From the NCBI RefSeq assembly GCF_051903065.1, contig NZ_CP178438.1: a DNA stretch of 64,000 bases. The stretch is one strand, 5' to 3'. Under the pieces are notes generated by a model. It ran no database searches. It worked only from the letters and a program-made list of their open reading frames with translations, and was not told where the DNA came from. Both the position numbers and the translations under genes were made by a program. Shown one piece after another: positions 895-39,201 of this stretch. Each line of letters begins with the position of its first letter. Positions within the stretch are counted from its first letter, which is position 1. The stretch comes from Escherichia coli (lineage in GTDB: Bacteria > Pseudomonadota > Gammaproteobacteria > Enterobacterales > Enterobacteriaceae).

Positions 895-1180
895 ACAAAT
901 TCCTTACTGAAAATACTGCGCTGCACTATACGGGGTTAATAAAATAAAGCCAGCGATATTTAAGACCGCCGGACGGCTAAAATAAAATTTGCTTAATCTC
1001 AATTATCATGCGTTAATAGCTGCGTCGGTTTGAAAGACAGACAGCATACAAAGTAGTTTACTAAAGCAGTTCTCATTATCAGGCATTATCCCCTTCTTTT
1101 GAGTCTCTCTCCTGAACACTAAGTAGTTTCTGTATTAAAGCCCTGTTTGCCGAAAGGCCCAACAATGAAGGAAGTAAAAT

Positions 1181-1393
1181 ATGTCTAATAAAATGACTGG
1201 TTTAGTAAAATGGTTTAACGCAGATAAAGGTTTTGGCTTTATCACTCCTGATGATGGCAGCAAAGACGTTTTCGTCCATTTCACCGCCATCCAGAGCAAT
1301 GAATTCCGCACGCTGAACGAAAATCAGAAAGTTGAATTTTCTATTGAGCAGGGGCAACGTGGCCCCGCGGCAGCGAACGTTGTTACGCTCTAA
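1181..1393 (+). CDS. cspG: Cold-shock protein CspG (70 aa)
   Basis: Track [37 protein letters not shown]...; the roughly 285-bp untranslated region upstream is typical of a cold-shock gene leader. Confidence 0.93.
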
Positions 1394-1592
1394 GGTTGCC
1401 GTTATTACTCAACATCTCCATTTCCGCTGTCCATGTTGTCATGGTTCACAGTACCGTACATCGGCATTCGATGTGACGGAGCGAAACCCTTTGGGCGCTA
1501 AGTGTATTTTTTGTAAATCGACGATGATCACCTTTGATAACGTCGCGCTGCAAATACGCACTGACCATGCGCCGCTGGATTTCACAAAATAA
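1359..1592 (+). CDS. ymcE: Small zinc-ribbon protein (YmcE/Sfa-like) overlapping the 3' end of cspG; start codon uncertain (GTG 1359 or TTG 1332)
   Basis: Track ORF 1332..1592 with CPCCHG...CIFCKS Cys pairs; position immediately after cspG matches the K-12 order. Confidence 0.45.
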
Positions 1593-37920: not shown

Positions 37921-37939
37921 CTGTCATCACTCTGTCATC
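37921..37939 (+). promoter_or_regulatory. Pho box (PhoB binding site) upstream of phoH
   Basis: CTGTCATCACTCTGTCATC: two direct CTGTCAT repeats with the 11-bp periodicity of a Pho box. Confidence 0.7.
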
Positions 37940-38087
37940 TTTCCAGTAGAAACTAATGTCACTAAAATGGTGTTTTATAGTTAAATATAAGTGAATATAT
38001 TGTTGCAATGAATGCGAGATCTGTTGTACTTATTAAGTAGCAGCGGAAGTTCCCGGCAGTGATAGTCAGTCACTATGGAGATCGCGG

Positions 38088-39152
38088 ATGGTAACGTCCT
38101 GTACTGGACATGTTTTAGATAATCAACGCGCCACCACTCGCGGAGTTTTCTCCTCCGGTAGTCATCTCGTCACTTTGCATTTTCAACCTCATCCTTTCTT
38201 TTCATGTGTTACCGACGCCGTAAACGGTGCGCGTAGCCGTTTTTCGGCATTTTATCCAAAAGCAAACTATGGCTTACAAGGAAGCCAACCCTCTGATGTT
38301 CGTGCGCATAATCGCGCTGCCAACGGCGCGTGTGATGAATACAAACAACTCAAGGTGCTCTCCATGGGAAGACAAAAAGCAGTGATCAAAGCTCGTCGCG
38401 AGGCAAAACGTGTGCTGAGACGGGATTCGCGCAGCCATAAGCAGCGTGAAGAAGAATCGGTCACCTCGCTTGTGCAGATGAGCGGCGTAGAAGCCATTGG
38501 TATGGCCCGCGACAGTCGCGATACCTCGCCCATCCTCGCGCGAAATGAAGCGCAATTGCACTATCTAAAGGCTATTGAGAGTAAGCAGCTGATATTCGCT
38601 ACGGGCGAAGCCGGGTGCGGAAAAACCTGGATCAGTGCAGCAAAAGCGGCAGAGGCCCTGATACATAAGGATGTCGACAGGATTATCGTCACCCGTCCAG
38701 TTCTGCAAGCCGATGAAGATCTTGGTTTCTTACCTGGAGATATCGCAGAAAAGTTTGCTCCCTATTTTCGCCCGGTATACGACGTGCTGGTCCGGCGCTT
38801 AGGGGCTTCCTTTATGCAGTACTGCCTGCGACCGGAAATAGGGAAGGTGGAAATTGCGCCGTTCGCCTATATGCGTGGACGTACCTTTGAAAATGCAGTT
38901 GTCATTCTTGACGAGGCGCAGAATGTGACTGCCGCGCAAATGAAAATGTTTTTAACCCGCCTCGGGGAGAACGTGACGGTTATCGTTAACGGTGATATCA
39001 CGCAATGCGATTTACCTCGCGGCGTGCGCTCCGGATTAAGTGACGCACTGGAACGTTTCGAAGAAGATGAAATGGTCGGGATCGTCCGATTCGGTAAAGA
39101 GGATTGCGTACGTTCGGCACTTTGCCAACGTACGCTGCATGCATACAGTTAA
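38088..39152 (+). CDS. phoH: PhoH (phosphate-starvation-inducible ATPase); a shorter product from an internal start is possible
   Basis: 354-aa track ORF with Walker A GEAGCGKT and PhoH-like core; internal in-frame MGRQKAVIK near 38365. Confidence 0.88.
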   Translation: MVTSCTGHVLDNQRATTRGVFSSGSHLVTLHFQPHPFFSCVTDAVNGARSRFSAFYPKANYGLQGSQPSDVRAHNRAANGACDEYKQLKVLSMGRQKAVIKARREAKRVLRRDSRSHKQREEESVTSLVQMSGVEAIGMARDSRDTSPILARNEAQLHYLKAIESKQLIFATGEAGCGKTWISAAKAAEALIHKDVDRIIVTRPVLQADEDLGFLPGDIAEKFAPYFRPVYDVLVRRLGASFMQYCLRPEIGKVEIAPFAYMRGRTFENAVVILDEAQNVTAAQMKMFLTRLGENVTVIVNGDITQCDLPRGVRSGLSDALERFEEDEMVGIVRFGKEDCVRSALCQRTLHAYS

Positions 39153-39201
39153 GTGTATTATCGGTGCAGAGCCCGGGCGAACCGGGCTTTGTTTTCGGTG
39201 T

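What the first reader, a model, noticed from the sequence alone, without database searches (positions are those of the whole stretch)
37921..37939. Pho box about 150 bp upstream of the long phoH ORF
CTGTCATCACTCTGTCATC is a good Pho box. Its distance from ATG 38088, together with an internal in-frame start (MGRQKAVIK, about 38365) that has its own upstream sequence, fits a two-promoter and two-product arrangement for phoH.
Basis: partly seen in the sequence, partly recalled or inferred. Interest (0 to 1): 0.2.

Follow-up and report, generated by a model that had tools for sequence, protein, structure and literature searches.

The report
Known phoH Pho box; translated leader
The motif is the already-documented PhoB binding site of the E. 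coli phoH promoter, and the "long phoH ORF" is best read as the conserved 262-residue PhoH preceded by a translated, structured leader that happens to be in frame in this strain.

Summary
CTGTCATCACTCTGTCATC lies at 37921-37939, 149 nt before ATG 38088, and is the only perfect Pho-box match in the window. The window is E. coli efeOB-phoH-pgaDCBA, and published PhoB ChIP-seq lists this same motif upstream of phoH.

Two promoters are documented, but the mapped TSS (window 38039) is upstream of both start codons, and no promoter-like site lies between them. So promoters do not map one-to-one onto products.

The internal start, ATG 38364 with an invariant AAGGTG Shine-Dalgarno, was already reported by Ribo-RET. 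It is the start RefSeq uses (262 aa).

New here:
- The 92-codon extension shows no amino-acid selection (codon-position diversity 0.33/0.33/0.34, versus a pos3/pos1-2 ratio of 9.9 in the core).
- Its frame nevertheless stays open for 84-133 codons in every species examined.
- It is out of frame with phoH in about 37% of E. coli genomes, in Salmonella, in most Citrobacter and in Yersiniaceae.
- It carries covarying RNA hairpins and a C-rich, G-poor tract.

The finding as stated is already known. The leader may be an undescribed translation-gated attenuator; this is an inference and has not been shown.

The parts
37921..37938 (+). Pho box: two CTGTCAT direct repeats (37921-27 and 37932-38) with a 4-bp spacer. 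This is the PhoB binding site of phoH promoter P1.
   Evidence: Sequence. The only perfect match in the window. The same motif is the ChIP-seq site in MG1655, peak 1084845 = window ~37941. A Pho-box-like motif sits at the same position in 53/67 species.
37949..37954 (+). Candidate -10 hexamer of P1 (GAAACT), 10 nt after the Pho box. The predicted P1 TSS is near 37961. Inferred only.
   Evidence: GAnACT is conserved at this position in the multi-genus alignment. The expected box-to-hexamer spacing comes from established Pho promoter geometry (background knowledge). The P1 TSS itself could not be retrieved.
37956..38009 (+). ArcA-P binding region (four direct repeats) overlapping the P2 -35.
   Evidence: The PMC3798270 supplement gives the site sequence, a footprint at -80 to -21 and a 25-fold ArcA effect on phoH expression (listed under ArcA-repressed operons). 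Mapped onto the window through.
38003..38039 (+). Promoter P2: -35 TTGCAA (38003-08), -10 TACTTA (38027-32), TSS at 38039.
   Evidence: TSS NC_000913.2 1084166, 49 nt before the annotated ATG, 221 reads (PMC3415461 supplement). TGTTGCA and TGnTGTACTTA are near-invariant across genera.
38058..38074 (+). Hairpin H0 (AGUGAU/GUCACU) just 5' of the first Shine-Dalgarno.
   Evidence: 80.8% of cells paired across 80 species, loop variable in length, some two-sided changes at the outer pair. Moderate support.
38077..38090 (+). SD1 (GGAG, 38077-80) and AUG1 (38088-90): start of the leader ORF, which is also the annotated start of the 354-aa ORF.
   Evidence: GGAGATCGCnnATGG is present in 77 of the 80 Enterobacteriaceae loci fetched (two differ by substitutions, GGAGACAGC and GGAGATATC; one locus is too short to tell), with close variants (GAGGAT, GGGGAG) in Yersiniaceae.
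38088..38363 (+). Leader ORF (92 codons here, fused in frame to phoH in this strain).
   Evidence: Codon-position diversity 0.331/0.334/0.337 versus 0.053/0.023/0.375 in the core. Open for 84-133 codons in all species. About 12 indels of 3n and about 6 frameshifts, all into the one open alternative frame.
38096..38109 (+). Hairpin H1 (GUCC/GGAC).
   Evidence: 99.7% paired across 80 species with a variable loop. Mostly invariant stem, so little covariation.
38139..38158 (+). Hairpin H2 (CGCGGAG/CUCCGG).
   Evidence: 97.5% paired; 3 of 6 pairs show two-sided changes. A Term-seq RNA 3' end lies 10 nt downstream at 38168.
38160..38213 (+). C-rich, G-poor tract with unconserved sequence (rut-like).
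   Evidence: C 0.35, G 0.09; C > 2G in 79/80 species, and in no other leader segment. The role in Rho loading is inferred.
38214..38251 (+). Hairpin H3 (GACGCC/GGCAUU, with inner GGU/GCC).
   Evidence: All 6 outer pairs show two-sided changes, e.g. GC:25 / CG:24 and CG:37 / UA:23.
38271..38286 (+). Hairpin H4 (GGCUU/AAGCC) with near-invariant loop ACAAGG (AAGGA motif).
   Evidence: 100% paired and near-invariant in Enterobacteriaceae. Compensatory stem changes in Rahnella (GGUCU/AGACC).
38307..38337 (+). Hairpin H5 (CGCGCU/GGCGCG, with outer CAU/AUG).
   Evidence: 97.7% paired; 3 of 6 pairs show two-sided changes (CG:36, UG:27, UA:17; CG:56, UA:18). Kept with a different stem sequence in Yersiniaceae.
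38352..38366 (+). SD2 (AAGGTG, 38352-57) and AUG2 (38364-66): start of the conserved 262-aa PhoH.
   Evidence: Invariant in all 80 species plus Yersiniaceae. Used as the start by RefSeq/PGAP. Ribo-RET internal initiation site.
38364..39152 (+). phoH core coding sequence (262 aa plus stop).
   Evidence: 93-100% protein identity across Enterobacteriaceae. Pfam PhoH covers long-ORF residues 149-353 and the NCBIfam PhoH equivalog covers 101-353.

Best explanation
The motif is the PhoB-binding Pho box of phoH promoter P1 in E. coli.

Under phosphate limitation, phosphorylated PhoB binds the two CTGTCAT repeats and recruits sigma-70 RNA polymerase. This is established for the locus. The exact P1 -10 (GAAACT, 37949-54) and TSS (~37961) are my inference.

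A second, PhoB-independent promoter P2 starts transcription at 38039 and is overlapped by ArcA-P sites. Both promoters lie upstream of both start codons, so each transcript carries AUG 38088 and AUG 38364.

The conserved gene product is the 262-aa PhoH from AUG 38364, which has its own invariant Shine-Dalgarno. The 276 nt from AUG 38088 to AUG 38364 are a translated, structured leader: a conserved SD and AUG, a frame kept open but not selected for its amino acids, five to six hairpins, and a C-rich tract.

In this strain the leader ORF is in frame with phoH, so a 354-aa fusion can also be made. In many other strains and species it is a separate upstream ORF that stops within about 66 nt of the phoH start.
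For: Pho box:
- Perfect and unique in the window.
- Identical to the PhoB ChIP-seq motif at phoH; RNA is 37,076 (wild type) versus 13,375 (phoB deletion).
- Positionally conserved in 53/67 species.

Promoters:
- P1/P2 are cited from Kim et al. 1993.
- TSS at window 38039, consistent with the ArcA footprint at -80 to -21.
- No promoter-like site inside 38088-38364.

Short form as the main product:
- 93-100% identity from residue 1 in 80 species.
- SD2 invariant.
- RefSeq start.
- Ribo-RET internal start with raised synonymous-site conservation.
- Family models cover only residues 101-353.

Leader rather than protein domain:
- Codon-position diversity ratio 1.01, versus 9.9 in the core.
- Fused in 51 of 77 species with the exact SD1/AUG1 motif (54 of 80 when a relaxed motif is allowed) and separate, always in the same phase, in 26.
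- About 37% of E. coli genomes carry a 1-nt deletion that gives a 98-codon separate ORF, with an identical 262-aa PhoH accession.
- Separate ORFs of 87-133 codons in Yersiniaceae.

Translated:
- SD1/AUG1 near-invariant.
- All 26 divergent clusters are stop-free in that frame at about 0.2-0.3 chance each, while the other frames carry stops.
- Indels are 3n, or shift only into the open alternative frame.

Structured:
- 97.1% of cells paired versus 29-48% when partners are slid.
- 160 two-sided-change cells versus 14-57.
- 0/500 shuffles reach the observed values.
Against: - The original P1/P2 mapping paper could not be read, so the P1 TSS is inferred. GAAACT is a weak -10.
- Translation from AUG 38088 is inferred from evolution. 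From memory only, Kim et al. 1993 purified a ~39-kDa PhoH whose N-terminal sequence matched the long ORF. That would confirm use of AUG1 in K-12 but says nothing about its purpose.
- Whether Ribo-RET saw a peak at the upstream start could not be checked, because the supplement is not held.
- Single-sequence folding of the leader is not unusually stable (z = -0.28).
- The species clusters used for the open-frame statistic are not fully independent.
Confidence: 0.8

Rival explanations
1. One reading: two promoters, each dedicated to one product, with an internal promoter inside the long ORF driving a transcript that encodes only the short PhoH.
For: Two promoters are documented for phoH and two in-frame starts exist.
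Against: The mapped TSS is 38039, upstream of both starts. The ArcA footprint places P2 there too. No sigma-70-like site was found within 38088-38364. The only mapped RNA end in that interval is a 3' end.
Confidence: 0.05
2. The 354-aa protein is the main functional PhoH. Residues 1-92 are a fast-evolving, probably disordered, functional N-terminal domain, and the 262-aa form is a minor isoform.
For: MG1655 is annotated with the 354-aa form. The frame is intact with 3n indels in 51-54 species. From memory, a 39-kDa product was purified in 1993.
Against: No amino-acid selection in the extension. The frame is broken in about 37% of E. coli genomes, in Salmonella, in most Citrobacter, in E. albertii, in Kluyvera and in Yersiniaceae, while the 262-aa part stays 87-100% identical. 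No family model covers residues 1-100. The conserved residues coincide with RNA stems that covary.
Confidence: 0.08
3. The leader is an untranslated structured 5' UTR. AUG 38088 is not used, and the open frame is a by-product of RNA-structure and composition constraints.
For: Strong covariation for the hairpins. Codon positions are equally variable. The G-poor tract lowers the frequency of TGA and TAG.
Against: A near-invariant GGAG, 7-nt spacer and AUG. The other two frames carry 2.8-7.3 stops in the same sequence. Indels are 3n, or shift only into the single alternative frame that stays open to the phoH start. All 26 divergent clusters are stop-free.
Confidence: 0.1

Closest known systems
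E. coli K-12 phoH (psiH) regulatory region: promoters P1 (Pho box, PhoB-dependent) and P2 (constitutive), Kim et al. 1993, J Bacteriol 175:1316
   Same: It is the same locus. Window 37740-38420 aligns without gaps to MG1655 and is identical from 38011 through 38420; the Pho box repeats are identical.
   Different: There are a few substitutions upstream (for example TAAAAT versus TGAAAT at 37963-68) and in the REP region. Nothing affects the Pho box.
Canonical Pho boxes of pstS, phoA, phoE, ugpB (consensus CTGTCATA(A/T)A(T/A)CTGTCA(C/T))
   Same: Two heptamer repeats with 11-bp periodicity, bound by a PhoB dimer, with PhoB-dependent induction.
   Different: The spacer CACT is less A/T-rich than the consensus. 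The downstream -10 candidate is weak. A second PhoB-independent promoter lies 78 nt downstream, so the basal level stays high in a phoB deletion.
Genes with in-frame internal initiation giving two isoforms (infB, clpB; Ribo-RET in-frame internal starts, Meydan et al. 2019)
   Same: Two SD-preceded in-frame AUGs on one mRNA. phoH is in the published list.
   Different: Here the shorter product is the conserved one. The N-terminal extension is not selected as protein and is often out of frame, so the 'long isoform' looks incidental.
Translated leader ORFs that gate downstream expression (mgtL-mgtA, corA leader, tnaC-tnaA for Rho; uof-fur and the iraD uORF for translational coupling)
   Same: A conserved start, an ORF needed for its translation rather than its product, a premature 3' end in the leader, a C-rich G-poor tract, and a stop close to the main start.
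   Different: The ORF is far longer (84-133 codons, versus 17-30 in those examples). It spans five hairpins and can be fused to the main ORF. Rho dependence and coupling are untested here.

Membership tests
Pho box / PhoB-dependent promoter | Two 7-bp direct repeats close to CTGTCAT, 11 bp apart | tested here: met
   0 mismatches in 14 specified positions; unique in the window.
Pho box / PhoB-dependent promoter | PhoB occupancy in vivo and PhoB-dependent expression | tested here: met
   From the literature on the identical K-12 sequence: ChIP-seq site, and RNA 37,076 versus 13,375 in the phoB deletion. Not measured in this strain.
Pho box / PhoB-dependent promoter | The box replaces the -35, about 10 bp upstream of a -10 hexamer | tested here: inconclusive
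   GAAACT lies 10 nt downstream and GAnACT is conserved, but it matches TATAAT at only 3 of 6 positions. The P1 TSS could not be retrieved.
Pho box / PhoB-dependent promoter | Conservation at the orthologous position | tested here: met
   The best motif lies 82-85 nt upstream of the P2 -35 in 53/67 species, with 3 or fewer mismatches in 46/67, versus about 5.8 in shuffles.
Dual promoters, each dedicated to one protein product (internal promoter) | A transcription start between the two start codons | tested here: not met
   No promoter-like site in 38088-38364. The mapped TSS is at 38039. Only a 3' end is mapped inside.
Two functional isoforms from in-frame alternative starts | Both starts in frame, each with a Shine-Dalgarno | tested here: met
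   GGAG, 7 nt, AUG 38088; AAGGUG, 6 nt, AUG 38364; 276 nt apart.
Two functional isoforms from in-frame alternative starts | The extension is under protein-level purifying selection | tested here: not met
   Diversity at codon positions 1/2/3 is 0.331/0.334/0.337 (ratio 1.01), versus 9.9 in the core.
Two functional isoforms from in-frame alternative starts | Frame continuity conserved among orthologues | tested here: not met
   26/77 species, about 37% of E. coli genomes and 3/3 Yersiniaceae have a separate upstream ORF.
Two functional isoforms from in-frame alternative starts | Both products detected | not testable with these tools
   The internal start is seen by Ribo-RET. The long 39-kDa product is recalled from Kim et al. 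1993 only (paper not held).
Translated leader ORF / Rho-dependent attenuator | Conserved start signals, and an ORF kept open without peptide conservation | tested here: met
Translated leader ORF / Rho-dependent attenuator | A C-rich, G-poor unstructured tract within the leader | tested here: met
   38160-38213: C 0.35, G 0.09; C > 2G in 79/80 species.
Translated leader ORF / Rho-dependent attenuator | Premature RNA 3' end in the leader | tested here: met
   Term-seq 3' end at MG1655 1085072 = window 38168, found in two conditions.
Translated leader ORF / Rho-dependent attenuator | Bicyclomycin/Rho sensitivity, and dependence of phoH expression on leader translation | not testable with these tools
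   No held dataset lists phoH.
CsrA-binding hairpin | GGA motif presented in a hairpin loop, and CsrA crosslinking in vivo | tested here: inconclusive
   The H4 loop ACAAGG followed by A gives AAGGA and is near-invariant. phoH is absent from the held CLIP-seq supplements.
Any Rfam RNA family (leader) | Covariance-model match | tested here: not met
   No relevant hit in 37700-38600 at E <= 10; only REP-derived naRNA4 matches upstream and chance-level hits.

The most novel reading that the evidence does not exclude
The 276 nt annotated as the N-terminus of E. coli PhoH are an undescribed regulatory leader, conserved across Enterobacteriaceae and Yersiniaceae.

A long ORF (84-133 codons) is translated only to shield a C-rich, G-poor Rho-loading tract and to unfold hairpins H1-H5. 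phoH transcription elongation and initiation at AUG 38364 would then be gated by how efficiently ribosomes start at AUG 38088.

The near-invariant AAGGA-loop hairpin H4 would be a binding site for a regulator, perhaps CsrA or PhoH itself, which is a putative RNA helicase.

The 354-aa 'PhoH' of K-12 is then an accidental leader-PhoH fusion. E. coli is dimorphic for it (about 63% of genomes fused, about 37% separate), with a 113-nt segment that differs by about 23% between the two allele classes.
Probability: 0.35. Interest if true: 0.5.

Novelty: already known. Interest (0 to 1): 0.3.

Why it matters
As submitted, the finding restates textbook Pho-regulon biology and a published internal start, so it adds little.

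What could matter:
- The reference E. coli annotation (354 aa) and the RefSeq annotation (262 aa) disagree. The comparative evidence here says which part is the conserved protein.
- PhoH is a widespread phosphate-starvation ATPase of unknown function. Its mRNA carries a deeply conserved, translated and structured leader that no RNA family describes.
- If that leader is a translation-gated attenuator, phoH would be controlled after transcription initiation by something other than phosphate. That would give a new handle on what PhoH is for.

Tried and rejected
- **Kim et al. 1993 (PMC193217) and Thomason et al. 2015 (PMC4288677):** not held. P1 therefore stays inferred, and the 39-kDa N-terminal sequencing is from memory only.
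- **Meydan et al. supplement:** not held, so I could not check for a Ribo-RET peak at the upstream start.
- **CsrA hypothesis for hairpin H4:** no phoH entry in the held CLIP-seq supplements, and no paper links CsrA to the phoH leader. Kept only as speculation.
- **Long-range helix** (UUCCC + AUGGAGA with UCUCCAU + GGGAA), which would occlude SD1 and AUG2: suggested by the MFE fold but has no covariation, and one pair exists only in Escherichia. Not adopted.
- **Whole-leader thermodynamic stability:** z = -0.28, so not used as evidence.
- **A small ORF starting at ATG 38270** (MAYKEANP...): rejected because that ATG is not conserved (AAG in Salmonella, CTG in Buttiauxella).
- **AlphaFold on 48 long-form orthologues:** mean pLDDT 38, low even in the PhoH domain. 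Uninformative.
- **Rho datasets:** the Dar & Sorek and Nadiras supplements are not held, and no paper pairs phoH with Rho.
- **Salmonella HilD-phoH paper:** gives no start-site information.

Full report
**Identity of the region.** The window is E. coli chromosome. Bases 37740-39160 match 5,415 of 5,426 complete E. coli genomes over at least 80% of their length, and are 100% identical to strain 23CRST027. The gene order is efeO-efeB-phoH-pgaD-pgaC. The window aligns without gaps to MG1655, so window coordinate + 1,046,904 gives the NC_000913.3 coordinate.

**The observation.** CTGTCATCACTCTGTCATC is at 37921-37939. It consists of two exact CTGTCAT heptamers 11 bp apart. It is the only match to CTGTCATN4CTGTCAT in the window with fewer than three mismatches. 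The long ORF runs 38088-39152 (354 aa). The internal in-frame ATG is at 38364 (codon 93) and is preceded by AAGGTG.

**What the motif is.**
- The PhoB ChIP-seq study of MG1655 lists TGTCATCACTCTGTCATC as the motif for the site upstream of phoH. The peak coordinate is 1084845, which is window ~37941.
- That study finds phoH RNA significantly lower in a phoB deletion (37,076 versus 13,375). It keeps phoH among the seven confirmed Pho-regulon operons (PMC10294691).
- A Pho-box-like motif sits at the same position, 82-85 nt upstream of the conserved downstream promoter, in 53 of 67 species. It has three or fewer mismatches in 46 of them, against about 5.8 for shuffled sequence.
- This is a genuine and already known PhoB site.

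**Promoters.**
- The ArcA regulon paper cites Kim et al. 1993 for two phoH promoters and states that the ArcA repeats overlap P2. Its supplement gives the ArcA site sequence, which maps to window 37956-38009, at -80 to -21.
- Genome-wide TSS profiling places the phoH TSS 49 nt upstream of the annotated ATG, at window 38039. The -10 is TACTTA and the -35 is TTGCAA (PMC3415461 supplement). These elements are near-invariant across genera.
- P2 therefore lies upstream of ATG 38088, and P1, with the Pho box, lies further upstream.
- I infer a P1 -10 at GAAACT (37949-54), since GAnACT is conserved there. The original mapping could not be read.
- No sigma-70-like site lies between the two start codons.
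- The two promoters therefore do not correspond to the two products.

**Which start defines PhoH.**
- RefSeq annotates phoH from ATG 38364 (262 aa) in a genome identical to the window and in every other PGAP genome fetched. MG1655 keeps the 354-aa annotation.
- The 262-aa sequence is 93-100% identical across 80 species of Enterobacteriaceae, always from its first residue. AAGGTG, 6 nt, ATG is invariant.
- Ribo-RET already reported an in-frame internal start in phoH with raised synonymous-site conservation. The authors warned that some such cases are mis-annotated primary starts.
- Pfam and NCBIfam models cover only residues 149-353 and 101-353 of the long ORF.

**The 92-codon extension is not a conserved protein segment.**
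- In species with an intact long frame, diversity at codon positions 1, 2 and 3 is 0.331, 0.334 and 0.337. In the core it is 0.053, 0.023 and 0.375.
- With the exact SD1/AUG1 motif, the upstream ATG is fused to phoH in 51 of 77 species; a relaxed motif brings the count to 54 of 80.
- In the other 26 it is always in the same alternative phase. That gives a separate ORF of 84 or 97-98 codons, ending 26 nt before or 19 nt after ATG 38364.
- Within E. coli, about 2,000 of 5,417 genomes carry an allele spanning 275 nt instead of 276. Three fetched examples have a 1-nt deletion near 38185 and a 98-codon separate ORF. One of them carries the same 262-aa protein accession as the window-type strain.
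- In Yersinia ruckeri, Rahnella and Serratia, the ORF from the conserved start is 100, 133 and 87 codons. It stops 24-66 nt before the phoH ATG.

**The extension is nevertheless probably translated.**
- GGAGATCGCnnATGG is near-invariant.
- The frame from that ATG is stop-free through the extension in all fused species and in 81% of the separate ones. The other two frames carry 2.8-7.3 stops, and only 1.8% of shuffles are stop-free.
- Across the fast-evolving central 36 codons, all 26 divergent sequence clusters are stop-free, at a chance of about 0.2-0.3 each. The clusters are not fully independent.
- About 12 distinct indels are multiples of three. The roughly six frameshifts are all net -1 or +2, into the single alternative frame that stays open to the phoH start.

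**The extension is a structured RNA.**
- RNAalifold on 80 species predicts local hairpins.
- For 33 pairs in helices H1-H5, 97.1% of cells are paired, versus 29-48% when partners are slid. There are 160 cells with changes on both sides, versus 14-57. None of 500 shuffles reaches the observed values.
- H3 and H5 carry most of the compensatory changes.
- H4 (GGCUU-ACAAGG-AAGCC) is near-invariant in Enterobacteriaceae but shows compensatory stem changes in Rahnella.
- No Rfam family matches.

**A possible mechanism (inference).**
- The segment between H2 and H3 (38160-38213) is the least conserved in sequence, but its composition is conserved: C 0.35, G 0.09. C exceeds 2G in 79 of 80 species, and in no other leader segment.
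- Term-seq found an RNA 3' end at MG1655 1085072, which is window 38168. That is 10 nt 3' of H2.
- Together these fit a leader in which translation from AUG 38088 shields a Rho-loading tract and opens the hairpins.
- This would explain why the frame must stay open to near the phoH start, while neither the peptide nor the fusion matters.
- Rho dependence, translational coupling and any binding partner of H4 are untested. No held dataset supports CsrA binding or Rho sensitivity.

**Verdict.** The Pho box, the two promoters and the internal start are all real and already published. The proposed link between promoters and products is not supported. The additional result is that the 'long phoH ORF' is a translated, structured leader that is fused to phoH in this strain and in K-12, and separate from it in about a third of E. 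coli genomes and in many relatives.

Noticed in passing
window 38103-38215: E. coli is dimorphic here. Two allele classes (about 63% and 37% of 5,417 genomes) are only 75-79% identical over this 113-nt stretch and differ by a 1-nt indel. The promoter, the 3' part of the leader and the phoH core are 98-99.5% identical between them. The divergent allele also occurs in Escherichia sp. E1V33. The cause is unknown.
   Followed up: partly
window 38954-39147, minus strand: Rfam gathering-level match (187.6 bits) to Ysr251, a Yersinia antisense sRNA family, opposite the 3' end of phoH. It may simply reflect the high conservation of the phoH coding sequence.
   Followed up: no
window ~37745-37895: A cluster of REP/BIME-type palindromic repeats between efeB and the phoH promoter. 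It gives sub-threshold naRNA4 hits on both strands and is the most variable part of the intergenic region relative to K-12.
   Followed up: partly
window 38168: Published Term-seq RNA 3' end (MG1655 1085072), 80 nt into the annotated long ORF and 10 nt after hairpin H2, seen in two growth conditions. There is no U-tract, so it is not a canonical intrinsic terminator.
   Followed up: partly
window 38227-38385 (+), alternative frame: The +2 frame is open across the 3' part of the leader and ends at TGA, 19 nt past the phoH ATG. This is exactly the frame used by the separate upstream ORF in frameshifted strains and species.
   Followed up: yes
window 38364-38393: The first codons of the 262-aa PhoH (ATG GGA AGA CAR AAA GCA GTG ATC) are almost invariant at synonymous positions in 80 species. 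This suggests an RNA-level constraint at the start site. A possible pairing of GGGAA with UUCCC at 38051-38055 has no covariation support.
   Followed up: partly
window 39167-39195: A GC-rich hairpin (AGCCCGG-cgaa-CCGGGCT) followed by TTGTTTT, between the convergent phoH and pgaD genes. It is a likely shared terminator and was missed by the simple terminator scan.
   Followed up: no
window 1024-1447 (+), 56930-57021 (-), 51246-51330 (-): Other Rfam gathering-level hits in the window: a cspA-type thermoregulator 5' UTR, the ES056 sRNA and a tRNA.
   Followed up: no
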